Shown: positions 1-34,473 of the stretch, in pieces
Position numbering within the stretch: the first letter of the stretch is position 1
Layout of the letters: each line of letters opens with the position of its first letter
Virus record (IMG/VR): IMGVR_UViG_3300030104_002586
Location: 1 to 34,569 of that record
Reading direction: 5' to 3' (one strand)
Source of the DNA: a virus
Lineage: Duplodnaviria; Caudoviricetes
DNA: 34,569 nt
Made by a program: the position numbers and the translations under genes
Notes under the pieces: model-generated
Seen by the model: only the letters and a program-made list of their open reading frames with translations
Told to the model about the DNA's origin: nothing
Database searches by the model: none

Positions 1-40
1 GGCGCTTCACACGGAGCGCCTTATGGAACAATCGGTTCCA
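1..40 (+). repeat. Twin-hairpin intergenic element, copy 1 (5' truncated)
   Basis: GGCGCTTC-ACAC-GGAGCGCC TTA TGGAAC-AATCG-GTTCCA. Confidence 0.9.
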
Positions 41-136
41 CACTAAAAAATGAAAGAGAGAACAAAATGGAAACATTTGGAAAAACAATAACACACGAAT
101 CAGTCAGCTTCAGAAATACAAAAGACCGTTGGTCTT
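1..136. repeat. Terminal direct repeat, left copy (circular overlap)
   Basis: 14-136 matches 34447-34569 with one mismatch (A88/G34521); the leading GGCGCTT is also shared but the hairpin loop differs. Confidence 0.95.
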
Positions 137-438
137 GTTTCGGCAACTGGTTCAACACCAAAGACCAAGAAATTGGAAACTACTACAATGAGGACGGCGT
201 ACTTACTTTAGAGAACGTTGCTAACTTCCTTATTGAACACAAAGATATGACTTGCAACGCGGGTTGCAAAGTTCCAATGCTTGCTCAGGGCGAAACTACT
301 TATGAAGTAGAAGTCGCTAGATTCTGGGACGGCGACGGCGGAACAGACGACGTCGAAGTCTTAGGACAAGTTACTATCAAAAGAACAGGAAATATTTGCC
401 TAGCTAAGTTTGACACAAGCCGAGCTGGACAACGCTAG
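67..438 (+). CDS. Hypothetical early protein (123 aa)
   Basis: ATG preceded by purine-rich GAAAGAGAG; flanked by twin-hairpin elements. Confidence 0.8.
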   Translation: METFGKTITHESVSFRNTKDRWSCFGNWFNTKDQEIGNYYNEDGVLTLENVANFLIEHKDMTCNAGCKVPMLAQGETTYEVEVARFWDGDGGTDDVEVLGQVTIKRTGNICLAKFDTSRAGQR

Positions 439-440
439 TA

Positions 441-487
441 GCGTACTGCACTTGCCGAGCGCGAGTGCAGAACGGTGCATAGCACCA
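441..487 (+). repeat. Twin-hairpin element, sequence-divergent copy
   Basis: CTGCACTTGC-CGAGC-GCGAGTGCAG then GGTGC-ATA-GCACC-A; same position and architecture as the other copies, different sequence. Confidence 0.65.
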
Positions 488-521
488 TAAGTAAAAACTA
501 AAAAAGAAAGAGGAAAACAAA

Positions 522-821
522 ATGGCACATTTAATGGCTATTAGACCACTAACAAAAAAAGCAATGGACACAATTGGCGAAAACGGATTTTGCCTAAGTG
601 ATGATACAAATGATTATGCACTTGGAATAATGAAGTTAAAGAAATTGGGACTACACGGCAACGGCAACGTTGTTGGAATTGGTTGTACCGACGGCAAAAG
701 TTGCGGTTGGACTAACGAAGATTTCATTGCTTACGAACAAAGACTAATTGATGAGGGTCTGGACACAGACGGACACTCTCAAAGAACCATTGAGAAATTA
801 CGTAAAGCAATGGCTAGCTAA
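522..821 (+). CDS. Hypothetical early protein (99 aa)
   Basis: ORF with SD GAAAGAGG. Confidence 0.8.
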   Translation: MAHLMAIRPLTKKAMDTIGENGFCLSDDTNDYALGIMKLKKLGLHGNGNVVGIGCTDGKSCGWTNEDFIAYEQRLIDEGLDTDGHSQRTIEKLRKAMAS

Positions 822-824
822 GAA

Positions 825-870
825 GCTTGGGCGCTTTCTAACGAGAGCGCCTTATGGTTTTTAGAAACCA
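825..870 (+). repeat. Twin-hairpin element, copy 2
   Basis: GGGCGCTTTC-TAAC-GAGAGCGCCT TA TGGTTT-TTAG-AAACCA. Confidence 0.9.
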
Positions 871-903
871 AAAGTACAAACTATAAAAGAAAGAGGTACC
901 CAA

Positions 904-1233
904 ATGGGAACTGAATACAAAGACATAACAAGCAAAAGAAATAACGATACAGTTAAAACTATACAGGTCAAGCAATTTGCTGGCGGTAAAGATTTTGACG
1001 GTGTTGGAATACAATTGACAACAAACGCTGAAGAGAACTGGAAGAACAAAGAGCGACCTTGGGAAGCACAATACATACAGTTCAGCCGTCAAGACATACC
1101 AGCAATAGTTAAAGCTTTGCAAAGTTATTATGACAACGAATATCCAACATTGTTGCAAGACAATTATGAGAAATCACATTTCAACGGAACTTGCGAGTGC
1201 AACTGTTCAGAGCGAGATGAGATAGAAAGTTAG
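904..1233 (+). CDS. Hypothetical early protein (109 aa)
   Basis: SD AAGAGGT; C-terminal H/C cluster. Confidence 0.8.
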   Translation: MGTEYKDITSKRNNDTVKTIQVKQFAGGKDFDGVGIQLTTNAEENWKNKERPWEAQYIQFSRQDIPAIVKALQSYYDNEYPTLLQDNYEKSHFNGTCECNCSERDEIES

Positions 1234-1240
1234 AAATAGT

Positions 1241-1489
1241 ATGAACAACAAATACGTAGCAATCGAAGATACGGACGAGTTGATTATAGGCAAATGTTAC
1301 ATTGGACACAGTTCAAGCATTAGCCATATCACATTAACACACGTTGTTGGAAGCAACATTTATCAGTTAAGTAAGCCGATAAGAGTAAGCAACCAGCAAG
1401 TAAAGTTGAGGCAAGAAAATGTTGCAATCGGACTTAACGATAAAGCAACACCTTACCCAAGACAACGCGACCATATCAACAGATTCTAG
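1241..1489 (+). CDS. Hypothetical protein (82 aa)
   Basis: ORF fills the gap up to the next repeat; weak SD. Confidence 0.6.
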   Translation: MNNKYVAIEDTDELIIGKCYIGHSSSISHITLTHVVGSNIYQLSKPIRVSNQQVKLRQENVAIGLNDKATPYPRQRDHINRF

Positions 1490-1492
1490 GAA

Positions 1493-1537
1493 GCTAGGGC
1501 GCTTATTAGCGTAAGCGCCTTATGGTTCTTAGAACCA
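1493..1537 (+). repeat. Twin-hairpin element, copy 3
   Basis: GC TAGGGCGCTTAT-TAGC-GTAAGCGCCTTA TGGTTC-TTA-GAACCA. Confidence 0.9.
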
Positions 1538-1576
1538 ACAGTATAAATAAACTAAAAGAAAGATGAGGTACCACAA

Positions 1577-2530
1577 ATGGTAGCAAATATAGAAACAATG
1601 TTCTCAGCTAAGGAAACCCCTTGGCACAAATTGGGAACGATTACAGACGGCGTCTTAACAAGCGCCGACGCAATAGTAAAAGCTGGACTTGATTGGGAAG
1701 TCAGATTGAAAGACTTGTATTACACAAGTGATACAACTTTTGGCGCTGAACATAAAGCGCCCAGCCACTATGCAACAGTACGAAGTAGCGATGAAAATTG
1801 CTTGGGTGTTGTCGGAAACCGATATACACCAGTACAAAATAGTGAAGCGTTTAACTTTATGGACGCTTTAGTAGATAGCGGGGAAGCTAAATACGAAACC
1901 GCTGGAAGCATAGCTAACGGTAAGATTGTTTGGATTCTTATGAAACTAGATTCTTTAGAGAACAATTCATTTGAACCAGACGTATTTGAACCGTACGTTT
2001 TGCTTTCAAATTCCCACGACGGAAGTAGCGCGCTTAAAGTTACGATGACACCAGTAAGAGTAGTGTGTCAGAACACTTTGCGTATGGCTCTTAAAGGAGC
2101 TTCGCAACAATTTAGTATGCGACATACTTCTGGAATTGCAGGCAAAGTTCAGCAAGCTAGGGAAACCTTAAACTTCGTAGGCAAGTACTACGAATCATTT
2201 CAAAATGAAGTTAATGCTCTTATTGACAAAGAAGTTAATGACAAGCAATTTAACGAAATTGTTGAGATATTATTTCCAAGACCAAGCGACGAGGATATGG
2301 AAAAACCAAGAACCGCAAACAATTACGAAAACATTGTTGGCGACTTGAGAACAAATTGGAATAACGAATTGCATAAAGGAAGTGCTTGGGGCGTTGTCAA
2401 TGCTTTCAACTCATACGAGCTTTGGAATCAAAAGACAAGAACCGACAAATTAGAAAGACAAGCGAAGAACTTTATCAACGACGACCAATACTATACAAGA
2501 CGCGCACACCAGATTGTGCATAGTTTGTAG
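1577..2530 (+). CDS. DUF932/DUF945-family phage/plasmid protein
   Basis: Motifs ETPWHKLG, AGLDWEV, YTPVQNSEAF, YETAGS, NSHDGSSA, PVRVVCQNTL, RHT. Confidence 0.9.
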   Translation: MVANIETMFSAKETPWHKLGTITDGVLTSADAIVKAGLDWEVRLKDLYYTSDTTFGAEHKAPSHYATVRSSDENCLGVVGNRYTPVQNSEAFNFMDALVDSGEAKYETAGSIANGKIVWILMKLDSLENNSFEPDVFEPYVLLSNSHDGSSALKVTMTPVRVVCQNTLRMALKGASQQFSMRHTSGIAGKVQQARETLNFVGKYYESFQNEVNALIDKEVNDKQFNEIVEILFPRPSDEDMEKPRTANNYENIVGDLRTNWNNELHKGSAWGVVNAFNSYELWNQKTRTDKLERQAKNFINDDQYYTRRAHQIVHSL

Positions 2531-2533
2531 AGA

Positions 2534-2578
2534 GCTAGGGCGCTTATTAACGTAAGCGCCTTATGGTCTTTACGACCA
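2534..2578 (+). repeat. Twin-hairpin element, copy 4
   Basis: GC TAGGGCGCTTAT-TAAC-GTAAGCGCCTTA TGGTC-TTTAC-GACCA. Confidence 0.9.
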
Positions 2579-2599
2579 GAAAGATGAGGTAAATAATTT

Positions 2600-2908
2600 A
2601 TGATTGAATTAAATTATTGCGTTTATAAAAACTCAAAAGCTAGGCAAGAACAACACCCTTATAGCGCTATCCAATCGGATATTCACTACATAGGTTCAGT
2701 TGAGCTTGAACAGACTTTGAGTAATCCCGCTGAAGTAATCCAGAACTGGATTAATAGGGAAGTAAAAATATATAACAACAAAAGAACCGAAGCAGAAAAA
2801 AAACAATTTGAATATGTTATTGCTGAAGTTACTGAAGTTGAATTAATTAAAACTGATTCAGACCTAGTTGATATGGGTATTGAATTGGAATTAGGCGAGG
2901 AGGAATAA
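2600..2908 (+). CDS. Hypothetical protein (102 aa, acidic C-terminus)
   Basis: SD GAGGT; TAATG coupling to the next gene. Confidence 0.8.
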   Translation: MIELNYCVYKNSKARQEQHPYSAIQSDIHYIGSVELEQTLSNPAEVIQNWINREVKIYNNKRTEAEKKQFEYVIAEVTEVELIKTDSDLVDMGIELELGEEE

Positions 2909-3312
2909 TGGGATTAGATAATATTGTATTCCAATATTCAAATGAGCAAGACGATGACGGCAACAAGATTTATTTACCAATGGTAGATAAAAAGCTTGCA
3001 CGTCTTTGTAGGCAACTTACAGGCGGGATAGCAACAGAAGATTCTAATTCTTTTAGAGGCAAAGTGTATGCAAAGCTTTTGAAAGAAAAATGTTTTGTTG
3101 ATTTATACAAGAGCGACGAGTGGAAAGACCACGACTACGCTAAAGTAGTAGCCCAAATGTATATTAACGACTATGCCGAGAACGATTACATAAATGAGTT
3201 CGGGCATACAATTACAGTTCGGAACCAGATTAACTTGCGAAAGTTTTTCAGTTATATGCTGGAGCTACGCAACAAGTATGGGGAAGAAGTTCAGTTAGGA
3301 GCGTGGTACTAA
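2908..3312 (+). CDS. Hypothetical phage protein (134 aa)
   Basis: SD GAGGAGG; MGLD N-terminus and aromatic C-terminus as seen in many small phage proteins. Confidence 0.8.
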   Translation: MGLDNIVFQYSNEQDDDGNKIYLPMVDKKLARLCRQLTGGIATEDSNSFRGKVYAKLLKEKCFVDLYKSDEWKDHDYAKVVAQMYINDYAENDYINEFGHTITVRNQINLRKFFSYMLELRNKYGEEVQLGAWY

Positions 3313-3455
3313 TGGCTGGTGGAATACCAAACAGAAGTATATCAAAAGTCCAACAGGGCAAGTACAATAATAAAGTGCAATTCTCTAGTACGGGCATATC
3401 AGCTCGCAACAAAAGACGACTTGCAAAAAAACTAAAGAGAAAGAGGGGAAAGTAG
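3312..3455 (+). CDS. Small basic protein (47 aa), not in ORF track
   Basis: TAATG overlap, SD AGGAG; MAGGIPNRSISKVQQGKYNNKVQFSSTGISARNKRRLAKKLKRKRGK; exactly fills the gap. Confidence 0.65.
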   Translation: MAGGIPNRSISKVQQGKYNNKVQFSSTGISARNKRRLAKKLKRKRGK

Positions 3456-3456
3456 T

Positions 3457-3765
3457 ATGGCTAAATACGAAGACTACCCAACTGTTGTAGATTACGACAC
3501 GGAGCCAGAAGCGTCAGACTTAATTAACGACGTTTTCAAAAGTATCCAAGAAGAAATCCTACAACCAGTAGCAGAAGCAATTAGGAGCAACAACGAACTA
3601 ACACATAGTTCGCCAACTCTTACACAAGTGTTCGGATTAACACACGCAAACGTGGTTAAGGCTTTGAACATTGTAGATGCTTACAAGCAAAACATTAAGG
3701 AAGCTCAAGAGCTTGATAAGAAAGAACAACTTCTTAGAGATAGCTTCGACGAGCCACCTTTCTAA
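3457..3765 (+). CDS. Hypothetical protein (102 aa) ending DSFDEPPF
   Basis: SD GAGGGG; TAATG coupling. Confidence 0.8.
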   Translation: MAKYEDYPTVVDYDTEPEASDLINDVFKSIQEEILQPVAEAIRSNNELTHSSPTLTQVFGLTHANVVKALNIVDAYKQNIKEAQELDKKEQLLRDSFDEPPF

Positions 3766-3947
3766 TGGATATATTAATATTGTTTTGGTTTGCAGAGTTA
3801 ATGTTATGGATAGGAATTATTCTTATGCCTTTTGCATTATTAGAACTTTATATTCTCAACAAAGAGAAAGTAAGTAAAACCGAAATAGAAATATGGACAG
3901 AGCAGTATCAAGCGGACGTTCCAACCGTTTGGACAAAAACCCAATAG
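3765..3947 (+). CDS. Small membrane protein (60 aa)
   Basis: Hydrophobic N-terminal half; coupled start. Confidence 0.65.
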   Translation: MDILILFWFAELMLWIGIILMPFALLELYILNKEKVSKTEIEIWTEQYQADVPTVWTKTQ

Positions 3948-3952
3948 GGCAA

Positions 3953-4043
3953 TCGCTAGACCGAGTGTCTAGCGAGGAAGTTATTAGGGACTTCACGAAA
4001 TCTCCCTGTTACGTACGACCTTAGTAGCTTCCTCGTTAGGCAC
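3953..4043 (+). promoter_or_regulatory. Structured leader: 25-bp G-U-rich stem with a competing 9-bp hairpin
   Basis: 3965-3989 pairs with 4019-4043 (5 G-U, no mismatch); 3953-3961 pairs with 3967-3975. Confidence 0.75.
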
Positions 4044-4071
4044 ACGCTTAACACTAAGAGAAAGAGCAAAA

Positions 4072-4371
4072 ATGAAAACTAGAAATATTGTTGGTTCATT
4101 TCGAGGCGAAGTGATACCAGCTTATATTAAAAACAAAAGCCAGCTTGTTGCTTACGTGCTAGTTAGATACAGGAAAGAAGAGCCAATATCAAATGGCGAA
4201 TTTGTATTTGACTTACGTTGCACAAGATTCGGCGCAATAATACATAACCTACGTCATAATGACGGTTGGGTTATCCAAACAGTACAAAGTAAAGAACAGG
4301 GTAAATTTGTTTTTTACTTAGTATCAAAACCAGACGACGTCGAGGGTAATACAAACCTTAGACTTGTCTAG
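4072..4371 (+). CDS. Winged helix-turn-helix DNA-binding protein
   Basis: ISNGEFVFDLRCTRFGAIIHNLRHNDGWVIQT pattern. Confidence 0.65.
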   Translation: MKTRNIVGSFRGEVIPAYIKNKSQLVAYVLVRYRKEEPISNGEFVFDLRCTRFGAIIHNLRHNDGWVIQTVQSKEQGKFVFYLVSKPDDVEGNTNLRLV

Positions 4372-4867
4372 AAAGCAGGAGCAAATGATAAAGAACGATA
4401 ACATCATAGTCGCTCAATGTTGCTTTAAGGGTGCTATTGACTTAGCCGTAGCCAATAAGATTACGGTTGAAGAAGTCTTTACACTAACGCAACGTTGGAC
4501 AGACGATATTATCAAATCTTACGGCAACGATAGTAAGACTACGGTCGTTAAAAGCGACGGTAAGCCTAGCTTCCAGCCAAAAGATAACTACAAGAAAACT
4601 ACTAATGGAAAGAGTCCAACAGTTAAAAACCCTGACGCACCAGTCAGCGAGAAGCAACTATGGTTACTAAATAAGTTAGTAGGCGAATTACCAGCAGACC
4701 AGCAGAACGGATTTACTGGATTAATTAAAGACAATATGAAAATGGGACTGGCGTCATCTTTGATTGAAGAAATGAAAACAATCATTGACGGACAAAAGCC
4801 AGAAGCAAAACCAATGGAGCAAGTCAAGAAAGATTCTGACGGCGCTCCAACAGAAGCACCATTTTAA
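4364..4867 (+). CDS. Hypothetical protein, possibly recombination/ssDNA-related (start uncertain)
   Basis: PVSEKQLWLL motif, flexible linker, acidic tail ending EAPF; lies upstream of the initiator. Confidence 0.6.
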   Translation: MSRKQEQMIKNDNIIVAQCCFKGAIDLAVANKITVEEVFTLTQRWTDDIIKSYGNDSKTTVVKSDGKPSFQPKDNYKKTTNGKSPTVKNPDAPVSEKQLWLLNKLVGELPADQQNGFTGLIKDNMKMGLASSLIEEMKTIIDGQKPEAKPMEQVKKDSDGAPTEAPF

Positions 4868-4868
4868 T

Positions 4869-5621
4869 ATGGAGGACGGCAATAAGATACAAAGCGATTT
4901 ATATTTCGCCATTGTTCCAGAGTGGATAATTGACGCGCCAATATCCGCTCAAGCCGTCCGCCTTTACGCAACGTTGCACCGATACGCAGACAAAAGCGAC
5001 AAGACTTGTTACCCAGCTATCAACACGGTAGCAAAGCGTATGCAAGTAAGTGCTTCAACAGTGAAAAGAGCTTTAGAAGAATTAAAAGAAATTAAAGCGC
5101 TAACGGTTGAAGCTCGGTACAACAAAGCTACGGGCGAGCAGACCAGCAACTTATATACGTTAATGACTGTACCAGCTTTCACATACGAACCACCCCAGAC
5201 CAAATATGAACTGGAGGGAAGTTCGTCAGAGAGCTACAAACTAAAGTCATATAACCATAGTAAGTTTGCCGAACAATATTCGGCACTTGTAGAAGCTTTT
5301 TACAAGCCAGCTACAAAAACCGAGATTGGCGGATTCAATAAATGCGCAAAGCAATTACACGAAGCGGGAGCGACTTATGATGACATACTTGAGAGAGTTT
5401 TGATTTATAAATCCAAGTGGTCTAATATGACTATTACGCCTTATGCAATTGTTAAGCATTGGTCGGCGTTAGGAATTTTACAAGAGGAGCAAGTACCAAA
5501 AGAATTGCCAATGTGCGATTCAGAAAAACATTTACAAATAATTAAATTCGATGACGGATTCAGTTATTGTGCAAGATGTAGTACAGAATACCCAGAGAAA
5601 AATCCTTATGTACCAAGCTAA
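4869..5621 (+). CDS. Replication initiator-like protein with N-terminal HTH
   Basis: FAIVPEWII...AVRLYATLHRYAD...CYPAINTVAKRMQVSASTVKRALEEL...SNLY; ATG 4869 preferred to 4785, which overlaps the previous gene; C-terminal Cys/His cluster. Confidence 0.8.
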   Translation: MEDGNKIQSDLYFAIVPEWIIDAPISAQAVRLYATLHRYADKSDKTCYPAINTVAKRMQVSASTVKRALEELKEIKALTVEARYNKATGEQTSNLYTLMTVPAFTYEPPQTKYELEGSSSESYKLKSYNHSKFAEQYSALVEAFYKPATKTEIGGFNKCAKQLHEAGATYDDILERVLIYKSKWSNMTITPYAIVKHWSALGILQEEQVPKELPMCDSEKHLQIIKFDDGFSYCARCSTEYPEKNPYVPS

Positions 5622-5721
5622 ATAGAATTGGGGACAACGAGAAATAGAGCCGTAAGAGAACTACGGACGTGGTGCCTTTCCGAAGTATTAACTTCTAGAA
5701 GCTTCGCCATAGTTGAACATC

Positions 5722-6234
5722 TCAATCCCCAAATTCATATCCAAAGTTTTTCAAAACTTCAACACAAACATTTTCAATTTCGTCCAACTCAAAACTAACA
5801 ATGCCCTTAGTAGAACCGTCAGGCATAGACACTTGTATAAATGGTTTAGACATATTACCAAAAGCCCTATGAGAAATATCAGATTGCGTTTTACTTTTGT
5901 AAAAGATTTTAGAAAGTGGTTCAACTTGTTTGCCAGCTTTTACTTCAACCCTAAGACCAGTAGCCCAATTTTCTTCGTGAGCGTCTGCACCGTGAAAACG
6001 ATTATCAGGAATACCAAGCTTCTTACGAGCAAGATTCTGCTTACGCCTACCTTTAGCACGATTACGCCTATTGATACAAGTACGGCACTTACATTTCGTT
6101 TTTACTTCATTTGAATTAGGACATTTACCAGCCATACGCGTATTGGAATTAGGTTGCCCTAGACCAGACCAGCCAGCGTACTTCTTAGCTTTATATTCCG
6201 CGTACGTTTCAGTTCCGTCCCACCCTTTACTCAT
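5722..6234 (-). CDS. Putative PD-(D/E)XK nuclease/resolvase-like protein with Cys cluster
   Basis: CPN...CKCRTC, basic helix, RVEVKAG (E-x-K) motif. Confidence 0.45.
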   Translation of the reverse strand: MSKGWDGTETYAEYKAKKYAGWSGLGQPNSNTRMAGKCPNSNEVKTKCKCRTCINRRNRAKGRRKQNLARKKLGIPDNRFHGADAHEENWATGLRVEVKAGKQVEPLSKIFYKSKTQSDISHRAFGNMSKPFIQVSMPDGSTKGIVSFELDEIENVCVEVLKNFGYEFGD

Positions 6235-7090
6235 TAACTAATTTATTTTCTTGGACTTTTAAGCGTTTCAAATATTCGCTTTCCATAGAATCACAGTCTT
6301 CCATACGAGTACGATAATAACAAACAACAGAAATGCGTTCGCCGTCCTCACTATTTTTAATTAGCTCAGTGTTGCCGTGCCATTGATGAGCGTCAAAAAT
6401 TAATAAATCTTTATGCTCCATTTTAAAAGCAATACGATATTCAGGCAGAACCAAATAGCCACCAGCTATATCGCCCTTTTTAATACAAGCAAGAGTAGAG
6501 ATACCCTCGTCTAAATCGCCTTTGTCAGTATGAACACCAGTAGGGTAAGAGTTATTTACAGTTACCGTAGTAAATGGCGTATTAGGAATTACCCAGTCTT
6601 GATGAGTACGATTTATAAATTCCATTTGCGCATTGTATCTAGCTGGCGCTACCTTTTTCATTTCGTCGCCAATAAACACAAAGAGCGGAAAGAGTTTTTT
6701 ATATTTGTCCATTTCACGCCCACTAAAAGCAGTAAGCCTACAATATTGTTTGGGTCCGTAAGCGTCAAAACTTCCAACAATTGCACTTGATATAGCCTTA
6801 GCGGTCGCTGAACGCGTTTTCCCAGCTTTAATTAACCGTGGCGTACCAGACGCCAGACCTCTATTGTTAGTTTGATAGCCTTTAAGCTCGTGCAGAGTAT
6901 CATAAGTTTTATCAACTATATCGTCTGGGATTACACCTTTTTGAAAGACCGCCATTACTTGACCGTCAAGACCACGAACCGTAGTGTCTTTGTGAATTAA
7001 CAAATTGTAATCTTCGTGCGTCAGTATCTTTCCCTTTTTCTGCTCCAGTTCTTCAGCAGAAATTTTACTTCGCAACCTTATGTCAATCAA
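6227..7090 (-). CDS. TET/JBP-family 2-oxoglutarate/Fe(II) dioxygenase
   Basis: FTTVTVN, HxD (VHTDKGD), GGYLVLPEY, DLLIFDAHQWHGNT, ERISVVCYYR. Confidence 0.9.
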   Translation of the reverse strand: MIDIRLRSKISAEELEQKKGKILTHEDYNLLIHKDTTVRGLDGQVMAVFQKGVIPDDIVDKTYDTLHELKGYQTNNRGLASGTPRLIKAGKTRSATAKAISSAIVGSFDAYGPKQYCRLTAFSGREMDKYKKLFPLFVFIGDEMKKVAPARYNAQMEFINRTHQDWVIPNTPFTTVTVNNSYPTGVHTDKGDLDEGISTLACIKKGDIAGGYLVLPEYRIAFKMEHKDLLIFDAHQWHGNTELIKNSEDGERISVVCYYRTRMEDCDSMESEYLKRLKVQENKLVNE

Positions 7091-7248
7091 CCAGAACCCC
7101 CAACGTCTAGCCAGCCAGCTTTATCCAAAGCTTTGTCAAAATTATCCGCTTTCCAATGCAAAACAATTTCGTCAATTATTTCTCTATATTCCTCTTGAGA
7201 ATATTTACTTATATCTATTTGTTTAATTAATTCAATTAGTGCGTTCAT
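7087..7248 (-). CDS. Small hypothetical protein (53 aa), not in ORF track
   Basis: ATGA overlap with kinase stop and TTGA overlap with TET start; MNALIELIKQIDISKYSQEEYREIIDEIVLHWKADNFDKALDKAGWLDVGGSG. Confidence 0.7.
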   Translation of the reverse strand: MNALIELIKQIDISKYSQEEYREIIDEIVLHWKADNFDKALDKAGWLDVGGSG

Positions 7249-7802
7249 AATCCAATTTTACTAAAATTTTCAGCAATTTCCACAAAGATTTTATCTCTTC
7301 CTTTACCAGTACAATCTATCCTGTAAGCTTCATATTGTTTAGCAAGCTTTTGATGTTTAGTTATTCGAGATTTAACCCAGTCATAATTTTGTTTTTCTAA
7401 ATTATTTTCTTTAGCCCTAGCTTCAGAACGTTCATTACGAACAATTTCGTCAAGTTCCAAGCTTAATAAATGCAAGTCGCCATACCTTTTAGCAACATCA
7501 AAGAACTTACCGTTAGCTAGCCTATCGCCCTCAGCAACAACGCAATTAAACTTACCCAAGCTATCCCAAGCAGAATACAAGCCGTTCATAAACTTAAGCG
7601 CAGTAAAAGAAAGAGTATCAGTACCAGAAAAAACATCTCGCTTCCTACCTAAATAAATATTTAAGTTTTTACCAGAACGATAGACAGTATATCTAATTGG
7701 TTTTGTAAATTGCTCAACAACTTCCCAGCCGTGCATTATTTTTTCCATTTGTGTAGTTTTACCACAAGCTGGAGCGCCAATTATATAAAATGTATTTAAC
7801 AC
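7245..7802 (-). CDS. P-loop nucleotide/DNA-base kinase
   Basis: Walker A GAPACGKTT, FSGTDTLS, VVAEGDRL, lid arginines; resembles kinases of base-modification clusters. Confidence 0.8.
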   Translation of the reverse strand: MLNTFYIIGAPACGKTTQMEKIMHGWEVVEQFTKPIRYTVYRSGKNLNIYLGRKRDVFSGTDTLSFTALKFMNGLYSAWDSLGKFNCVVAEGDRLANGKFFDVAKRYGDLHLLSLELDEIVRNERSEARAKENNLEKQNYDWVKSRITKHQKLAKQYEAYRIDCTGKGRDKIFVEIAENFSKIGL

Positions 7803-8581
7803 AAAGAATCAAGCCACCTAGCAATTAAAGACGGAGCTAGACCGTAGCCAACTCTATGTAAGCCACCAATAGAAGTAAAGTTTTCTTTAACATTAGGAAC
7901 GATAATATCTTTACTAATTGTCTGAGTGCGAATACCCATAGACAAAACCCAGTCATCTACTTTTGACACCAAGCCAATATCTTCAGCTAAATTCAACATA
8001 TCAAATATTTGAAACTTACACTTATCTTTATCTTTGCTAATGCTAGAACCAAGACGAACGGCTCCGTCAGTTTTAACAATTTGTATAGAGTGATAAGGAC
8101 GAACGTGATGAACACGATAAGGTGCATTTAACATTTCAGCAGATTTACTTATTAAAGTTGCACCCCAGAATTTGTTTAAATTCCTACTTAGACTTACACC
8201 GCGAGCGTCAAGAACGGCGTCATAGCCAAACCTTTTAATCTGGTCAATGTGTTGAACGTCAGAAAGATAGTCTGGTAATTCCAAAACACTTACTGGATTT
8301 ACAAGCCACCACGAATCTTGCTCAACAACTTTATCCGTACGCCAAGAGCTTACCCAAGCAGAACGAGTTACCGTAGCCCCAAACTCTTCATACCAGCTCC
8401 AACTCTCTTCAATGTTTGCCCTTTGGTCTTTTGAAAACCAAGTAGGACGAATTGTTGCAAGAGCAGAACGAGAAGCAACATCTCTATTAGTAGAGTGTAT
8501 CTTAGCTTCGTACCCATTTTTTAACGCAATTTTTTTAGCCATAGAGCCAGCTATTCCATTTCCAATTATTCCAATTCGCAT
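7796..8581 (-). CDS. FAD-dependent oxidoreductase (glycine/D-amino-acid oxidase-like)
   Basis: Rossmann IGIIGNGIAG, ASRSA, VLDARG, GIR, GGLHRVGYGLAP. Confidence 0.8.
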   Translation of the reverse strand: MRIGIIGNGIAGSMAKKIALKNGYEAKIHSTNRDVASRSALATIRPTWFSKDQRANIEESWSWYEEFGATVTRSAWVSSWRTDKVVEQDSWWLVNPVSVLELPDYLSDVQHIDQIKRFGYDAVLDARGVSLSRNLNKFWGATLISKSAEMLNAPYRVHHVRPYHSIQIVKTDGAVRLGSSISKDKDKCKFQIFDMLNLAEDIGLVSKVDDWVLSMGIRTQTISKDIIVPNVKENFTSIGGLHRVGYGLAPSLIARWLDSLC

Positions 8582-8964
8582 AATATCCTTTCTACTTCTT
8601 TTTTAATTTGAACTACTGCAAGCGCATATTCTTTCGTAAAATGCGGGTCAGCAATATTATAATCAGCTAACCTACGTGCTTTATTTGTTAAGAACTTTTT
8701 GTTGAGCTTACTTACTTGACCACTACCCATACAATAAATAACGTCAGCCCACTCAACTAACAAGAAATCAACTTGCTTACTTTTGTGTTCAAAAAATTTA
8801 CCATACGCATTCATAATCCTTTTGGTAGCGGGAAGACCTTTAAGAGCGCCTTTACCCAGACCAGCAGAATCAACGTTTGTATAACCTTTGTCTTTAAACA
8901 TTTGTTCAGCAACCGCAGAACGATTAATGTTGCCCGAACATATTACCAAGATGTTTGGATTCAA
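8566..8964 (-). CDS. Low-molecular-weight phosphatase (LMW-PTP/ArsC fold)
   Basis: ILVICSGNINRS (Cx5R), VDSAG, WADVIYCM, IADPH. Confidence 0.88.
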   Translation of the reverse strand: MNPNILVICSGNINRSAVAEQMFKDKGYTNVDSAGLGKGALKGLPATKRIMNAYGKFFEHKSKQVDFLLVEWADVIYCMGSGQVSKLNKKFLTNKARRLADYNIADPHFTKEYALAVVQIKKEVERILCELE

Positions 8965-9793
8965 TTTTCCCCCTATCTAAAACAAATTGCAAACGCTTTT
9001 TATATTCATCAACGCCGTGTTTTTCCATTATTTTTTTATTTGTATAATCAAAACCTAATTGTAAAGCTTCGTTCCATTTAGCCATACGTGGTATTTCAAG
9101 CTTCATAGCTTCGTAATTATCAAACGGATTTTTTTTACTTAAGAAAGATTTAACAAAGTTTTCACACCACAACAGAGCAGAAGCATATTCTCTAAGAGAA
9201 TCAGTACCAAAGAAATGTCGAAATTCAATAGTGCCGTTACTATAAATGCTTTTAAGATTTATACCAGCACGCCTACTAATACGACCAACGCCCAGAGCGT
9301 TTCTAATTTGAGAGTGATTACGAGCAGTAGAAATTAACCCTTTAGCATTTTTACTTAATTTAGTTTGATGAGATTTTTTAACGTGCTTTAACCTATCGTA
9401 CATAAGCTGGCTAGTAGGAACGGGCAACGGGTCAATAATACGATAAACCAAATCTTCGTAAGCATTTACATAATATTGAAATTCTTTAATCAATCGCCAG
9501 TCGTGTATCAAACCCTCAACCCCAACGTGTATGTGCAAATTACTTTTATGATTAGTTTTTGTTTTATACAATTTATATATTTGCTCAATTATTTCAATTT
9601 GACCAACAACAGTATCGGTCGGATTAGTATTTATTTCAGAACCAATTAGTACATACTTTTTCAAGTTGTCATTAGCAACACCACAATTATTTACAATAGT
9701 GTAATCTTGTTTGTCATAAACACCCAGCTCTTCAGGAAGTTTAACCGAAGTATCTATATCGGGAAGTTCTAATTCAACCCCGAAGCTTAACAT
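8924..9793 (-). CDS. Putative amidoligase (COOH-NH2 ligase)
   Basis: SFGVELE, GSEINTNP, SNLHIHVG, GINL...GTIEFRHFFGT. Confidence 0.85.
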   Translation of the reverse strand: MLSFGVELELPDIDTSVKLPEELGVYDKQDYTIVNNCGVANDNLKKYVLIGSEINTNPTDTVVGQIEIIEQIYKLYKTKTNHKSNLHIHVGVEGLIHDWRLIKEFQYYVNAYEDLVYRIIDPLPVPTSQLMYDRLKHVKKSHQTKLSKNAKGLISTARNHSQIRNALGVGRISRRAGINLKSIYSNGTIEFRHFFGTDSLREYASALLWCENFVKSFLSKKNPFDNYEAMKLEIPRMAKWNEALQLGFDYTNKKIMEKHGVDEYKKRLQFVLDRGKIESKHLGNMFGQH

Positions 9794-10646
9794 CTTTCCT
9801 TACCCCGTTCCAGCCGTTGAGCTCGCCCAAAAATTCATTAGGCAAAGTTTCCTTACGAGCTTCAAACAACAAGTCAGTATATTTACTTGGTACTTCTTTA
9901 ATTGCAATTTGCATTTTGTCAATATCTATACCAGTGTAATAACGCCCTTTTGTTTTAGAATTAAAATCACATAAGCTAGTTTCCGCAGTTTCAAGCGTAG
10001 CGTGGTAACCACGATTGTTCATAGTTTCAACAAGTTGTTCGCTTAACAAATCAAGAACCCAAATTTCATTTGCAGAATTACCAGCTGGGACATTATCTAA
10101 CAACAACTCAAGACCACGTCGAGAACCAGAAGCACCATTGTGTCCCATATCAGTAGGCTCAACATTAAAGTCCAAAACTTTCATAAATATTTCCGCAGTT
10201 TTATATCCAGCCCAGCGACCATTACCCCAAAGCTTAATTAACCTTTCATTAACAAGAAGCCAATTGCTTTTACTATCATTAGTAAAACCTTTAGTAAAGT
10301 AAGATTCTAAAGAACCGTTCCAGAAAAACACATCAACAATAGATTCAAAATGTTTTTTCAAACGTTCTTGCACACGATGATTGCGCCTTTCAGTTTCACA
10401 CGGCAACTTAAAAGAGGCGAACGGTACTTCAGGCTTAGGACATTGTTCAAGAGTTTTGAAGCCAGAACCAATTTGATAGAAAGCAACATAGGAAAGTATT
10501 GCCCAGATTTTATCGTCAGTAGATAAATTTAATTTATCAAGAGTGTATTTTAAGACTGGATAAATCGGGTCAATGTCTTTTGATAACATTTGTGCGTTAT
10601 GAAACTCTAAATAATTTTGAAAGACGCTTTGGTCTTTAATTTTCAT
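9774..10646 (-). CDS. Amino acid:DNA transferase (aGPT-Pplase2/ADDT-like, HhH glycosylase fold)
   Basis: DIDPIYPVL, ETERRNHR, GNGRWAGYKTAE, GSRRGL, ETAETSLCDF, GRYYTGIDID. Confidence 0.8.
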   Translation of the reverse strand: MKIKDQSVFQNYLEFHNAQMLSKDIDPIYPVLKYTLDKLNLSTDDKIWAILSYVAFYQIGSGFKTLEQCPKPEVPFASFKLPCETERRNHRVQERLKKHFESIVDVFFWNGSLESYFTKGFTNDSKSNWLLVNERLIKLWGNGRWAGYKTAEIFMKVLDFNVEPTDMGHNGASGSRRGLELLLDNVPAGNSANEIWVLDLLSEQLVETMNNRGYHATLETAETSLCDFNSKTKGRYYTGIDIDKMQIAIKEVPSKYTDLLFEARKETLPNEFLGELNGWNGVRKDVKLRG

Positions 10647-11346
10647 TATTAAATATTTTACCTAGCCAGTTAGGGCGTTTAACTGAACCGCTATTTATTT
10701 CTTTTGCAAGATTGACAACAGTAAAGAACAAAGCTTCAGTATGACTAATTGAAAGCCCATTAGCAACAATATCAATATTTGTTTTATAATTTTCATATTC
10801 CTCTTTATGTAAAGCTAAAATTATTTCGTTCAAATGCTCACTAGATTTTTTTTCAGTAGGCTTTTGAATACGATTTTCAATATCAGCAATTTCATCATCA
10901 GTTAAAGCAAAACCACCAGTAAATTCTTCAAAGTCAGTTTCTTCTAATTTTTCAGTATCGTTAAAAATATTATCTACTTCATCAGCAGAAAACCCAGTAC
11001 CAAACAATGCGCCCAGCTCCATTAAGTCCCCAAGCATATTAGAAAGTTTTGTTTTGTCGTAAGTAGCCAATTCATTCAAACGGTTATCAACAAGAACAAT
11101 TTTACGAGCTTTAATATCATCAACATCAACGAACATCACATCACAAGTTTCATAACCTAATTCTTTCATAGCAAGCCAAGTGTGATTACCAGTAAGTATT
11201 TCATTATTGTTTTTATTTACAGTAAGAGGACGATATTGTCCGTGTTTTTCTAAACTTATTTTTATAGATTCTAAATTGCTAGAACGAGGATTATCAGGAA
11301 ATTCTTTTAACGAATTAATCTTTACATTTTTAATTTCATAATTCAT
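10636..11346 (-). CDS. ParB/Srx-like N-terminal domain protein, paralog 2
   Basis: LKEFPDNPR, GQYRPLTVN, ILTGNHT, IVLVDNRL; ATG 11346 chosen by alignment with paralog 1. Confidence 0.88.
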   Translation of the reverse strand: MNYEIKNVKINSLKEFPDNPRSSNLESIKISLEKHGQYRPLTVNKNNNEILTGNHTWLAMKELGYETCDVMFVDVDDIKARKIVLVDNRLNELATYDKTKLSNMLGDLMELGALFGTGFSADEVDNIFNDTEKLEETDFEEFTGGFALTDDEIADIENRIQKPTEKKSSEHLNEIILALHKEEYENYKTNIDIVANGLSISHTEALFFTVVNLAKEINSGSVKRPNWLGKIFNNEN

Positions 11347-11947
11347 TAGCTTCAACCTTTCTAGCGTAAAGCTCAACCGCTTTCAAACCAGCAGTTGTAG
11401 GATTACATTTGTAATAATCAGCAATGACATTAATAGCAGTTTTATATTCATCAAACTTAACATCATTAAGCAAAAGAACAACATCAAATACAGGAGCAAC
11501 CTTTGGCTCAGGCTTGGTAGTAGATTGAGGCGAGCTTACAGGCACACCCGCCTCAACCGTATCCAGCAGTTCAGCAACAGATTCAGCAGTATAACCAGTA
11601 CCAATTAATTCGCCTACATCTTGTAAGTCTTTAATAGCTTTTTCAAGCTTTGCAAAATCATAAGTACCGTCATCATTTAATTTATTATCAACTAAAACAA
11701 TTTGTTTAGCTTGTTGGTCATCAACATCAACATACCAAACCAACGCCGTAGCCCAGCCAAGACGCTTTATAGCTTTGTATGTATGATTACCAGCGAGAAT
11801 AACATTGTCTTTGCGATTTACAACTAAAGGACGGTATTGCCCATTTTCTAAAAGAGATTCATAAATAGAATTTACGTCGCCAACACGAGCATTGTCAGGA
11901 TATTCTTTTAATTCCCTTATATCTATTTCAACAAATTGTTCAGACAT
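11336..11947 (-). CDS. ParB/Srx-like N-terminal domain protein, paralog 1
   Basis: LKEYPDNAR, GQYRPLVVN, ILAGNHT, IVLVDNKL; SD AAGGA. Confidence 0.88.
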   Translation of the reverse strand: MSEQFVEIDIRELKEYPDNARVGDVNSIYESLLENGQYRPLVVNRKDNVILAGNHTYKAIKRLGWATALVWYVDVDDQQAKQIVLVDNKLNDDGTYDFAKLEKAIKDLQDVGELIGTGYTAESVAELLDTVEAGVPVSSPQSTTKPEPKVAPVFDVVLLLNDVKFDEYKTAINVIADYYKCNPTTAGLKAVELYARKVEANEL

Positions 11948-12636: not shown

Positions 12637-13308
12637 TCACGAAAGTCCAGACCAACTTAAAGAGTAATGAGTAATAAAATCAACATCAGAAGTATCGCCT
12701 AAACCAGTAAAATTCCACTCGCCTTTATTCTTAAATTCAAGTTGATTAGTTGTATAAAAGTCATAAGGGTAAGGATAGTTTTTAAGAAAGCGAGTTAATG
12801 CGTAAGGTCCGGTAGTTTGCGTTACAAACCTTTTGCGCCAAGTTTTATACACATCTTTTTTAGATTTGTCTTGAATTTGCAACTCAATAAAATCAATAAA
12901 GTCCAAAGCAAAGTTATGACCTTTAGGCATTTGGATTATTTCGTTAGTAATTATTTTACGATTGTCAGCCCGATTAGTGTAAGTTTTATCTAAAATAAAT
13001 CTTAACTTTTTATCATCAGGAACGTTTTTACAATTAGGAAAGACATCTAAATCAACATAAAGACCACCCATACTATAAAGAATTAACAAGCGAATAATAT
13101 CAACTTGCATAATTTCATAACGCGCAGAATTATACAGTTCTTCATATTCAGGAAAAATTTCAATTAGATTGTCGCAAGACTCTTTGTCCCACAAAATATA
13201 TTCATAACCATTATCAGCAGACCATTTTTCAAAACGCTTATTACTTTTTTTAAACAAATCGTTCATACCTTTACCGTAGAAGTCCCAGAATATTTGATGA
13301 ACTATCAT
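12637..13308 (-). CDS. DXD glycosyltransferase (GT32/OCH1-like)
   Basis: IVHQIFW, YEYILWD, DIIRLLILYSMGGLYVDLDV, TTGPYALT, H..SLSW. Confidence 0.88.
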   Translation of the reverse strand: MIVHQIFWDFYGKGMNDLFKKSNKRFEKWSADNGYEYILWDKESCDNLIEIFPEYEELYNSARYEIMQVDIIRLLILYSMGGLYVDLDVFPNCKNVPDDKKLRFILDKTYTNRADNRKIITNEIIQMPKGHNFALDFIDFIELQIQDKSKKDVYKTWRKRFVTQTTGPYALTRFLKNYPYPYDFYTTNQLEFKNKGEWNFTGLGDTSDVDFITHYSLSWSGLS

Positions 13309-14501
13309 AATATTTTAAGATTGTCCCAGCCAGCTTCATTAACAGTAAAAGAGAGAACACCATTACGCGTCATATTACCCGTACGAGCTTTAAATTCATT
13401 AGACTGGTCAAGACTGGGAGCTTGAAACCAAGTACGACCAAGTTGTTCAACAATACGTAAATGATGATAATGTCCAGTAACCAGAAGCTCACAAGTACCA
13501 GCTGGAAGCCAGCCATACATCTGACCTTTCCACCACTTCTCAATCTTTGACCAAATGTCGCCACCACCAGACGTCATATGCCCGTGAGTAAAGCCAATTC
13601 TTTTACCGTAAGTTTCTAAGACTAAATGAAAGTCGTCAGGAATAACTACCTTAACGTGCTTATACCTTTCACGATTAGATATTATTTCGCCAACAATTTG
13701 TATTTGCGCAGTATCACTATTGTCAAGTCGATTAGTTACAATAGAACCTTTACCCGACCTATGCTCGCCGTGATTACCAGCAACACCACCAAGAACAATA
13801 GATTCAGCTTGACCTAAGAAAGCGTCGAGTATTTCAATAATCATTACACGCGTTAGATGTTCTTGTTCAGTACGAGTAAGCTCGACATTAAAGGGTTGAT
13901 GTTCATAAAACCCATAACAATTTTCAATTAAATCGCCAAGTCCAATTAAGTAAATTTCTTTAACGTGAAACCCAGACTTTTTCAAATCTTTTAATTGTTT
14001 TTTCCCATTTGCAATAGCTTTCCTAATTAATTTAACAGTTTCATTACTTCCTAAATCTTTTTTTCCAAGTTGCCAGTCAGCCATAAAGAAAAACCAAGAA
14101 CAATTTCCACCTGACTTAACTTGTATCGGTTTTTTGTTTTTTACTTCTTTAAGAAGCTTCTTAAAATATTTATCGTGATGAGGATTTTTTTTCTTAATGA
14201 TTGCCTTAAAAGCATACATATCAACAATTCGCCCACCTTTTTGTTGCGTGTTCCAAGTAGAAAATTTAATCGTATCTTGGTCAATGTAAAATTCTTTAGG
14301 GTCAAAACCCCATTGAGTAAGCAGAGATTCATACTTAAAGTTATTGTCGCTAGGTTGAATATGAGTAATTGCACCCATTTTAGTTGCTTCGTCAAAAGAA
14401 GCTTCGGGCTTCCAGCCAGACGGGTAAAAGTTATTACCTAATTCCTCATTATGTTGGACATCTTTTCTTTTACGAATAAGACTTTCAACGTCTTTGTTCA
14501 T
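13305..14501 (-). CDS. Calcineurin-like metallophosphoesterase
   Basis: ADWQLG, GLGDLIE, GNHGE, THGH, GHYHH motifs. Confidence 0.88.
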   Translation of the reverse strand: MNKDVESLIRKRKDVQHNEELGNNFYPSGWKPEASFDEATKMGAITHIQPSDNNFKYESLLTQWGFDPKEFYIDQDTIKFSTWNTQQKGGRIVDMYAFKAIIKKKNPHHDKYFKKLLKEVKNKKPIQVKSGGNCSWFFFMADWQLGKKDLGSNETVKLIRKAIANGKKQLKDLKKSGFHVKEIYLIGLGDLIENCYGFYEHQPFNVELTRTEQEHLTRVMIIEILDAFLGQAESIVLGGVAGNHGEHRSGKGSIVTNRLDNSDTAQIQIVGEIISNRERYKHVKVVIPDDFHLVLETYGKRIGFTHGHMTSGGGDIWSKIEKWWKGQMYGWLPAGTCELLVTGHYHHLRIVEQLGRTWFQAPSLDQSNEFKARTGNMTRNGVLSFTVNEAGWDNLKIL

Positions 14502-23493: not shown

Positions 23494-23504
23494 TTATTCT
23501 CCTC

Positions 23505-33742: not shown

Positions 33743-34430
33743 AGTTCCACCTTACTAGGACAGACCGAGTATGTTGAATATTTAACCCAGAGAGCCAGCT
33801 ACGAAAAACAAAGTTCAAGCCTGTTTTACGTGTCAGATTTACCAGATTTTTTGGATTTTTTTTATTTTTTTTTTAGCCAATTTTTAGCAAAAATCGTTGT
33901 CGTTAGAGCCTATAAAACTAGGTGTTTTTTTAAGGAGCCACCAGAAAACCCAATTGCTAATTGAATATTTCTTCAAAAGAACTTTCTTTTTCTCTAAAAA
34001 CAGGCATAATTCTCTCAACTTAAAGAAAGAGGCAAAAAATCTAGAAATCGAAATCGCGGAAAATTCGGCTCCGACCAGCCTCACGCGACTCAAAAATGAA
34101 TCCCTAAGCTTTGGGACAAAAGCCCGCAAACCAGCCCGCGCGGTCGTTGAGTTTTTCTCGGCGTCCCGTTCGGGTACGGTGGTCGCCAAATCCATACGGC
34201 GATTACAACAATTATGAAAAGCGAAGTTTGACCAGCACGTCAGCGTAATCTTTAATCGCAACAACGTTGCTCAACTCACCACCCGTTAGTACGGCAAATC
34301 CATTTGCATAGACAATCCATACGGACTAGCTTTGAACACGGTAGGCAACGGACACGAAACTGCACCTTACACTTGACACCACCTTTATCAAAGGCGAGTG
34401 TATAACAAAATAACAACGTACCTGATTTTT

Positions 34431-34473
34431 GCTAGGGCGCTTTTACGAGCGCCTTATGGAACAATCGGTTCCA
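34431..34473 (+). repeat. Twin-hairpin element, right-end copy
   Basis: GC TAGGGCGCTT-TTAC-GAGCGCCTTA TGGAAC-AATCG-GTTCCA. Confidence 0.9.

What the first reader, a model, noticed from the sequence alone, without database searches (positions are those of the whole stretch)
1..2578. Early genes are delimited like cassettes by a covarying twin-hairpin element
Seen: at 1-40, 825-870, 1493-1537, 2534-2578 and 34431-34473 the consensus is GCTAGGGCGCTT-var-AGCGCCTTA-TGG-var-CCA. It forms two abutting hairpins whose inner pairs and loops vary while pairing is kept (P2 stems TGGAAC/GTTCCA, TGGTTT/AAACCA, TGGTTC/GAACCA, TGGTC/GACCA; P1 loops ACAC, TAAC, TAGC, TAAC, TTAC). A sixth element at 441-487 has the same architecture with unrelated sequence. 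Internal copies begin 2-3 nt after a stop codon and precede an A-rich leader with a GAAAGA(T)GAG-type SD. G-T pairs work only on the + strand, and there is no U-tract. Inference: a structured RNA (processing or stabilising site, or protein-binding site) or ssDNA signal that may also act as a recombination joint for swapping early genes, reminiscent of T7 RNase III sites or T4-type promoter/stem-loop cassettes. No integrase is present.
Basis: partly seen in the sequence, partly recalled or inferred. Interest (0 to 1): 0.8.

Follow-up and report, generated by a model that had tools for sequence, protein, structure and literature searches.

The report
Self-capping RNase III sites between genes
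An uncultured marine phage and its relatives place a conserved folded-RNA signal between their early genes that closely resembles the RNase III cutting sites of phage T7 and likely splits one long message into single-gene pieces, each predicted to refold so that both of its ends are protected by a small hairpin.

Summary
The window is a circular siphovirus contig, so 1-40 and 34431-34473 are one locus: four copies, plus two unrelated-sequence elements (434-487, 3953-4052). A 7-9 nt segment upstream of P1 pairs with P2's 5' arm and loop (206 of 217 cells over 31 distinct combinations; shuffles 114, 0 of 10,000), giving a ~20-bp rod that excludes P2 and is predicted more stable in 49 of 50 copies. 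Counted from P2's first base, a U-G pair sits at -11 in both sequence families, as in three of five T7 RNase III sites; a model built only from these elements had three weak T7 hits, all on such sites. Best reading: T7-type RNase III sites; a cut leaves P1 on the upstream message and frees P2 to cap the downstream one. No cut is shown and the host is unknown. Gene swaps end at the elements, but position confounds this. No Rfam match. The scan noted T7-like sites on other phage DNA; none of the 8 notes shown mentions the refolding cap.

The parts
34422..34473 (+). First family-A element (leader-trimming site). Lower-stem 5' strand 34422-34430, P1 34433-34456, predicted cut after 34457, P2 34458-34472
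   Evidence: 58.6 bits; it was in the training set
1..40 (+). Second appearance of the first element through the 136-nt terminal overlap of a circular assembly; bases 1-13 come from a strain variant
434..487 (+). Family-B-type element (A-A mismatch at -3, U-G at -11); predicted cut after 473, P2 474-486
818..870 (+). Family-A element; stop codon 819-821 lies in the lower stem; predicted cut after 855, P2 856-869
1484..1537 (+). Family-A element; stop codon 1487-1489 in the lower stem; predicted cut after 1523, P2 1524-1536
2525..2578 (+). Family-A element; stop codon 2528-2530 in the lower stem; predicted cut after 2564, P2 2565-2577
3953..4052 (+). Additional long-stem element (25-bp rod 3965-4043) with alternative hairpins on both sides (3953-3975 and 4035-4052) that meet the rod at about a 2-nt 3' stagger; predicted double cut after 3975 and 4034
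   Evidence: present in L026, L028, L009; U-G at -11, U-A at -12
67..438 (+). Cassette gene 1, 123 aa, no family hit; homologues in relatives at varying positions
522..821 (+). Cassette gene 2, 99 aa, no family hit and no homologue in the loci held
904..1489 (+). Two-gene cassette (109 aa and 82 aa), no family hits; shared at 92% with L201
1577..2530 (+). DUF932 gene (PF06067, E 1.8e-55) flanked by two elements
33983..34010 (+). Likely early sigma-70-type promoter, about 410 nt before the first element; weak in the window itself, 10 of 12 consensus at the aligned place in L037 and L068
   Evidence: (0 found in window); inference

Best explanation
The repeats are conserved RNA stem-loops that sit between the phage's early genes and are likely T7-type RNase III processing sites, with an extra strand predicted to refold after the cut so that the downstream message would begin with a protective hairpin. 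Steps: (1) inferred: one promoter near the terminase small-subunit gene drives a long early transcript; (2) shown by covariation and predicted by folding: as each element is made it folds into a rod (7-9 bp lower stem, small internal loop or mismatch, 10-13 bp upper stem, free loop); (3) inferred: host RNase III cuts the 3' arm at UUAU^GG (family A) or the equivalent place, probably on that strand only in family A; (4) predicted: the upstream piece keeps P1 as a 3' hairpin, and the released lower-stem strand pairs with the third strand to give P2 flush with the new 5' end, 25-40 nt before the SD, shielding it from 5'-end-dependent decay; (5) inferred, secondary: because element plus leader is the only homology between unrelated early genes, it also serves as a crossover patch, and each swapped gene arrives as a self-contained, end-protected unit.
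For: Lower stem, not used to select the copies: 206 of 217 cells paired over 31 distinct combinations, shuffle mean 114, sd 10, 0 of 10,000; slid registers 110-167 of 350 against 324. Alignment A3 (36 copies): 95.8% paired, 16 of 20 pairs with changes on both sides, slid controls 37-52%. Rod lower in energy than twin in 49 of 50 A copies (median 1.8 kcal/mol) and 78 of 83 B copies. Contiguous upper stem 10-13 bp in 46 of 50 (the other 4 have a U-U mismatch near the base), matching the 11-bp minimum of E. coli RNase III (PMC1540722). Counted from P2's first base, U-G at -11 in 37 of 46 distinct B stems (3' G in 46 of 46), 22 of 39 A stems, the sixth element and the 3953 element; T7 R0.3, R1 and R1.1 have it too, R0.5 and R1.3 have C-G. 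U-G in the distal box is a determinant in E. coli (PMC1540722) and enriched in B. subtilis sites (PMC11780869). Family B and the sixth element share A-A at -3 and C-G at -4 with T7 R1. Model R1, built only from family A, gave 3 hits in T7 1-9000, all + strand, at 5847-5907, 852-910, 1427-1488; R1.1 is cut at 5887 (PMC8708148). Loop inserts of up to about 70 nt leave both stems intact. The product starting at GG folds with its first two bases paired in 49 of 50 A copies, 25 distinct P2 hairpins; nulls 31 and 18 of 50, mean energy -5.3 against -1.3; 79 of 83 in B; 21 of 22 in an intermediate A/B set.
Against: No cleavage is shown; only assembled contigs were available for RNA. The host and its enzyme are unknown. 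Family A has G-C at -5 in 40 of 50 copies, including all four in the window; G-C at that proximal-box position inhibits E. coli RNase III (PMC1540722), and -4 is G-U in 48 of 50. The T7 hits are weak (E 0.53, 5.5, 9), rank among 4 chance-level window hits, and R1 and R1.3 were missed. U-G is also common at -13 in A (18 of 39), and two window copies have U-A at -11. The cut position is set by analogy and by P2's start; offset -1 works nearly as well in A (44 of 50). Rod and twin are within 1 kcal/mol in 21 of 50 A copies. Family B's lower stem and P2 hardly vary, so they add little covariation, and B could be cut on both strands, which would leave no 3' hairpin. T7 cut positions other than R1.1 are recalled.
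Confidence: 0.65

Rival explanations
1. The rod/twin pair is a protein-binding or ribosome-driven switch, or the substrate of another nuclease: the ribosome ending at the stop codon inside the lower stem opens the rod, P2 captures the freed strand, and this sets stability or translation of the next gene without RNase III.
For: A stop triplet lies in the 7-nt upstream strand in 25 of 27 internal A copies; rod and twin are near isoenergetic in many copies; the GC/UGG internal loop is conserved (partly by selection); family A departs from the E. coli proximal box.
Against: The first copy has no upstream gene; the -11 U-G register and 11-12 bp upper stem are shared by unrelated sequence families and T7; the SD is outside both folds in most copies. 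It may act together with cleavage rather than instead of it.
Confidence: 0.14
2. Intrinsic terminators or attenuators (tandem 'V-shaped' hairpins, recalled; or the terminator half of a PeSL) that step down early transcription.
For: GC-rich P1 right after stop codons; three window copies pass a loose terminator scan; 19 of 50 A copies have 5 or more T in the 8 nt after P1.
Against: 22 of 50 A copies have one T there and B has 1-3 in all 83; those T's are the covarying lower-stem strand; loops of up to about 70 nt are tolerated; the first copy precedes all early genes; promoter-like sites in 1-6500 are not above chance (10 against 14.4).
Confidence: 0.08
3. Primarily a DNA recombination site (attC-like folded single strand, or a dedicated joint) for swapping early genes; the RNA fold is incidental.
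For: Cassette content and order vary; blocks of 85% identity or more break at A/B junctions in 63 of 99 cases against 88 of 828 at plain junctions, family vote 19 of 25 against 11 of 42, p=1e-4; a 316-nt cassette is 99% identical in L182 and L197 whose DUF932 genes are 68% identical; A/B intermediate elements exist.
Against: No integrase among 47 proteins; wobble pairs work only on the transcribed strand; protein-adjacency tests not significant (p 0.07-0.54); per-base enrichment of block ends is alike at elements (53% against 26%) and plain junctions (7% against 4%); the 3 plain junctions inside the cassette zone broke in 4 of 4 observations; no joints in 4 DNA runs (contigs only); lower stems stay matched, which frequent crossing inside P1 would spoil.
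Confidence: 0.06
4. A put-like antiterminator RNA (two abutting stems that modify RNA polymerase; HK022, recalled), reloaded before each early gene.
For: Twin-hairpin fold on an early transcript.
Against: The twin is the less stable fold; a covarying lower stem that excludes P2 has no place in that model; P2 varies from 3 to 9 bp; no Rfam match.
Confidence: 0.03
5. A small self-cleaving ribozyme of a new kind.
For: Conserved internal loop, gene-separating position, product-like 5' hairpin.
Against: No Rfam match; simple rod with few invariant bases; the core differs between families A, B and the 3953 element while helix geometry is kept.
Confidence: 0.04

Closest known systems
Phage T7 early RNase III sites (R0.3, R0.5, R1, R1.1, R1.3; PMC8708148, PMC1540722, PMC3643576; record NC_001604 = L260)
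   Same: Between early genes and before the first gene; rod of lower stem, internal loop, 10-12 bp upper stem and free loop; 3' arm motif ending in UUAU then G; G-C at -6, U-G at -11; single-strand cut leaves a 3' hairpin on the upstream RNA.
   Different: Siphovirus, not a T7-like podovirus; no sequence descent shown; G-C at -5 in most A copies; a third, covarying strand gives a 5' hairpin in nearly all copies, whereas of five T7 sites only R1.1 has a predicted hairpin at the new 5' end (-6.8 kcal/mol) and R0.5 a weaker, offset one; at least two interchangeable sequence families plus intermediates.
S. aureus cspA 5' UTR processing (PMC3386247)
   Same: [quoted passage not shown]
   Different: One chromosomal leader, double cut; not a repeated intergenic module that protects both products.
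PeSL cassettes of T4-type phages (PMC2839356, PMC4122927)
   Same: Repeated intergenic stem-loop plus SD flanking small ORFans in a variable early region; proposed crossover patches.
   Different: PeSLs contain a sigma-70 promoter and act as terminators; 'RNase III' occurs 0 times in PMC2839356. Here no promoter is in the element, spacing varies by up to about 70 nt, and no mini-circles were seen or properly tested.
Integron attC sites (recalled)
   Same: Folded repeats between single-gene cassettes; family B contains an RYYYAAC-type heptamer.
   Different: Partner reads GATAGAT, not GTTRRRY; no L box; family A lacks the heptamer; fold favours the transcribed strand; no integrase.

Membership tests
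T7-type RNase III processing site | Intergenic on the early transcript, after a stop codon and before an SD | tested here: met
T7-type RNase III processing site | Helix of about 11 bp or more between cut and loop, about two turns in all | tested here: met
   upper stem 10-13 bp in 46 of 50, lower stem 7 bp covarying; cut position is predicted
T7-type RNase III processing site | Distal box with U-G at -11 (U-A at -12) | tested here: met
   commonest pair at -11 in A (22 of 39 distinct stems) and B (37 of 46); U-A commonest at -12 in A (21 of 50) but C-G in B (42 of 83)
T7-type RNase III processing site | E. coli proximal box (G-C at -6; A-U/U-A at -5, -4, -3) | tested here: inconclusive
   -6 G-C 41 of 50 and -3 A-U 46 of 50 fit; -5 G-C 40 of 50 and -4 G-U 48 of 50 do not; B fits at -5 (83 of 83) and equals T7 R1 at -3/-4; host enzyme unknown
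T7-type RNase III processing site | Loop sequence and size not required | tested here: met
   many loop types; inserts up to about 70 nt
T7-type RNase III processing site | Cleavage by RNase III at a defined bond | not testable with these tools
   only contigs for RNA runs
PeSL (T4-type) | Sigma-70 promoter within each element | tested here: not met
   one 9-of-12 match overlapping one element's tail, total below shuffle mean; variable spacing
PeSL (T4-type) | Gene gain and loss bounded by the elements | tested here: inconclusive
   for; against specificity
PeSL (T4-type) | Mini-circles from crossover between copies | tested here: inconclusive
   no joints in contigs of 4 DNA runs; contigs drop rare variants
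Intrinsic terminator | Short-loop GC hairpin followed by a U-tract | tested here: not met
   no conserved U-tract; long loops tolerated
Integron attC | RYYYAAC ... GTTRRRY boxes, L box, bottom-strand fold, integrase | tested here: not met
   the attC definition is recalled
Any Rfam 15 family (ribozymes, phage motifs) | Covariance-model match | tested here: not met
   window 1-6300: 4 matches, all E 0.43 or worse, far below gathering; 7 loci, 0

The most novel reading that the evidence does not exclude
A three-strand 'cut-and-cap' module: the same short strand first builds the RNase III substrate and, once cut, is recaptured by a third strand into a blunt 5' hairpin, so every early gene becomes an mRNA sealed at both ends; the upstream stop codon inside the stem lets the terminating ribosome toggle cuttable rod against uncuttable twin; and the module doubles as the standard joint through which this marine phage group trades single early genes across lineages, an integron-like array built on an RNA-processing signal with no integrase.
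Probability: 0.25. Interest if true: 0.7.

Novelty: new variant of a known kind. Interest (0 to 1): 0.42.

Why it matters
If right, it shows the T7 way of cutting an early message into stable single-gene pieces in an unrelated, widespread group of marine siphoviruses, with an addition that is conserved by covariation: a built-in 5' cap hairpin. More than 130 natural variants in two families give a ready set for testing how RNase III specificity differs in an uncultured marine host, and a 55-nt part that could insulate and stabilise cistrons in synthetic operons (T7 R0.5 and R1.1 are used so, PMC3643576). The elements also mark out the phage's swappable early genes, nearly all of unknown function, as candidates for host-takeover or counter-defence tests. 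The basic mechanism is long known, which caps the interest.

Tried and rejected
Rfam: no credible match. tRNA/tmRNA: 0. Five independent copies: rejected, two are one locus. A promoter just before the first element (TTGACA at 34374, TATAAC at 34401): spacing 22 nt, not found by the scan, not conserved among the 32 first-element upstream regions printed. RNA runs: 4 runs, contigs only; none of 18 pieces (of 21 listed; 2 pieces of an unrelated 35-nt match at 2821-2855 and a second piece of one diverged contig were left out) bridges a predicted cut, against 3.7 expected (P about 0.006), or 2.0 for the 9 pieces starting before 4100 (P about 0.07); two contigs of one run begin at 1538 and 4047, just past P2. 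Not used as evidence: hairpins block reverse transcription, repeats break contigs, and one study only. DNA runs: no joints. Protein-level neighbour test of shuffling: not significant in 6 of 6 settings, direction mixed; my ORF calling is crude. Position control: only 3 plain junctions inside the cassette zone, 4 of 4 observations broke. Host: terminase large subunit has only ~31% matches among cultured phages; genome contigs gave only distant terminase small-subunit hits; capsid relatives are uncultured, one cluster named uvMED; no host assigned. Of the 21 loci, 8 high-GC or single in-gene matches (L001-3, L010-12, L014, L017-18 type) lack the architecture and are chance. In one search, 7 of 57 pattern hits were dropped by eye (6 in genes or without the fold, 1 shifted duplicate). 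The 3953 element was found in only 4 of the g4072-bearing loci folded, and its stagger is 2 nt in the window but 1 nt in L009, so it is supporting, not decisive. Literature searches for this combination returned nothing relevant; the library lacks most older subscription papers (T7, SP82/SPO1), so absence from print is not established; supplements were not read.
Full report
Setting. The window is a whole virus record of 34,569 bases with HK97-type capsid, portal, terminase, tape measure and tail genes on the minus strand and small genes, DUF932 and a replication initiator on the plus strand: a siphovirus. No integrase was among 47 proteins scanned. Runs holding half or more of the sampled words are 5, four labelled marine metagenome. 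The host is unknown.

The observation. The copies are at the stated places. The ends overlap by 136 nt; contigs of 3 of 4 DNA runs join position 14 to the 34431 version and L180 has one copy across the junction, so 1-40 and 34431-34473 are one locus. Rfam has nothing.

Relatives. DNA patterns and protein queries fetched loci from viral and metagenome collections. A loose pattern gave 57 family-A hits; 7 were dropped by eye, leaving 50 unique copies, four of them the window's own. A second family (B) gave 83 unique copies, and 22 intermediates with an A-type base and B-type upper stem were found. The sixth element is B-type. Bases used in the patterns are invariant by construction; the lower stem of A, P2 of A and position -11 were not selected for.

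The missed fold. The 7-9 nt before GCUAG pair with the bases after UAUGG, which are P2's 5' arm and loop. Over 31 distinct combinations 206 of 217 cells pair; shuffles give 114 (sd 10; 0 of 10,000) and slid registers 110-167 of 350 against 324. On alignment A3 (36 copies) the 20-pair rod is 95.8% paired, with changes on both sides in 16 pairs; slid controls give 37-52% (the count of pairs with double changes alone was reached by 32 of 500 shuffles, and the copies are related). Rod and P2 exclude each other. The rod is predicted lower in energy in 49 of 50 A copies (median 1.8 kcal/mol, 21 within 1 kcal/mol) and 78 of 83 B copies. The sense strand folds better than the antisense in 50 of 50 and 81 of 83. 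Variants carry loop inserts up to about 70 nt with both stems intact. So the recognised object is most simply a double-stranded RNA stem of about two turns with an interruption.

Comparison with T7. The T7 early region (L260) folds into the same kind of rod before genes 0.3, 0.5, 1, 1.1 and 1.3, three of them with a 3' arm ending UUUAU then G. R1.1 is cut at nucleotide 5887 on one strand (PMC8708148, passages); the other four positions are recalled from Dunn and Studier 1983, which I did not see. PMC1540722 (passages and parts 2-3 of 7) gives an 11-bp minimum, a distal box U-A/U-G, a proximal box G-C then A-U/U-A pairs, inhibition by G-C at proximal position 2, indifference to the loop, and protection of the upstream product by the 3' hairpin left by a single cut. 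Placing the cut at the first base of P2 puts U-G at -11 in 37 of 46 distinct B stems, 22 of 39 A stems, the sixth element and the 3953 element, and in T7 R0.3, R1 and R1.1. B and the sixth element share A-A at -3 and C-G at -4 with T7 R1. U-G is also enriched in the B. subtilis distal box (PMC11780869, passages). A covariance model of family A alone hit T7 three times at E up to 10, each on one of these rods; the scores are weak, mixed with four chance-level window hits, and two T7 sites were missed. Against: G-C at -5 in 40 of 50 A copies, G-U at -4 in 48 of 50, and U-G also at -13 in 18 of 39.

The cap. The predicted downstream product starting at GG folds with its first two bases paired in 49 of 50 A copies (25 distinct hairpins, positions 3-5 covarying), against 31 and 18 of 50 in two nulls, mean energy -5.3 against -1.3 kcal/mol; 79 of 83 in B and 21 of 22 intermediates. 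Of five T7 sites only R1.1 shows a comparable predicted hairpin. RNase III processing that leaves a stabilising 5' hairpin is known for S. aureus cspA (PMC3386247, passages). In the 3953 element, alternative hairpins on both sides meet the rod at about a 2-nt 3' stagger (read and folds), as a double cut would need; it was seen in four loci and is 1 nt off in one.

Transcription unit. The 130 nt before the first element are not conserved. An alignment of 13 regions points to a promoter about 410 nt upstream, 10 of 12 consensus in L037 and L068 but below the scan threshold in the window. The first element would then trim a long leader, as R0.3 does in T7 (inference). A stop triplet lies inside the lower-stem strand in 25 of 27 internal A copies, which may only be economy or may let the ribosome shift rod to twin (untested).

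Gene swapping. In 65 non-redundant loci the promoter-proximal genes are mostly single-gene units between A or B elements, in varying content and order, followed by a more constant block. Shared blocks break at A/B junctions in 63 of 99 cases against 88 of 828 at plain junctions (both directions counted); by gene family and side, 19 of 25 against 11 of 42 (p=1e-4). One cassette is 99% identical between phages whose DUF932 genes are 68% identical. But the protein-neighbour test was not significant in any of 6 settings and per-base enrichment was alike for both junction types, and the three plain junctions inside the cassette zone broke in 4 of 4 observations. So cassettes are exchanged and exchanges end at the elements, but the elements are not shown to cause this. 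This parallels PeSLs (PMC2839356, passages; PMC4122927, part 1 of 3), which differ in holding a promoter and terminating.

RNA data. Four RNA runs gave contigs only; they cannot show ends and are not used as evidence.

Prior work. Seven paper searches for this combination found nothing relevant; supplied the background papers; PMC3643576 was seen as passages. The library lacks most older papers, so novelty in print is not established. The scan has no note on this DNA but lists 264 findings with these words, of which 8 were shown, most reading similar repeats in other phages as T7-type sites; I had reached this reading before seeing them and did not test them.

Verdict. Real, structured, transcribed-strand RNA elements; works like T7 early RNase III sites (about 0.65), membership unproven because cleavage is untested and the proximal box departs from E. 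coli rules. The conserved third strand that would cap the downstream product is the part beyond the textbook case. New variant of a known kind; interest 0.42.

Noticed in passing
window 6227-11947 (-): Cluster of likely DNA base-modification genes: Tet/JBP oxygenase (PF12851, E 8e-28), P-loop nucleotide kinase 3, LMWPc-like, amidoligase, amino acid:DNA transferase (ADDT) and two ParB-like genes.
   Followed up: no
window 33743-34420 (+): About 680 nt without a convincing gene between the terminase small subunit and the first element; similar length (540-740 nt) but patchwork sequence in relatives, with T-runs near the terminase side; could hold the packaging end, origin or a long leader.
   Followed up: partly
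window 3953-4052 (+): 25-bp stem with exchangeable inner loop, before the winged-helix-like gene 4072; conserved in L026, L028, L009 only among those folded.
   Followed up: yes
window 1577-2530 (+): DUF932 is flanked by two elements here but lies inside the element-poor block in more distant relatives and is missing from several (e.g. L053, L081, L082 maps).
   Followed up: partly
L063, L083, L107: A more distant phage group uses A- and B-type elements whose loops all contain GTTTAAAC.
   Followed up: no
window 23083-24218 (-): Two adjacent major-tail-protein-like genes (136 and 237 aa) that hit the same PHROG families.
   Followed up: no
window 12637-14501 (-): A DXD-type glycosyltransferase (PF04488) next to an exonuclease-like gene and an SLT lytic transglycosylase.
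   Followed up: no
L260 5888-5910: The T7 R1.1 downstream product is itself predicted to fold a 7-bp hairpin at its new 5' end (-6.8 kcal/mol), so the cap may exist unnoticed at one T7 site.
   Followed up: partly
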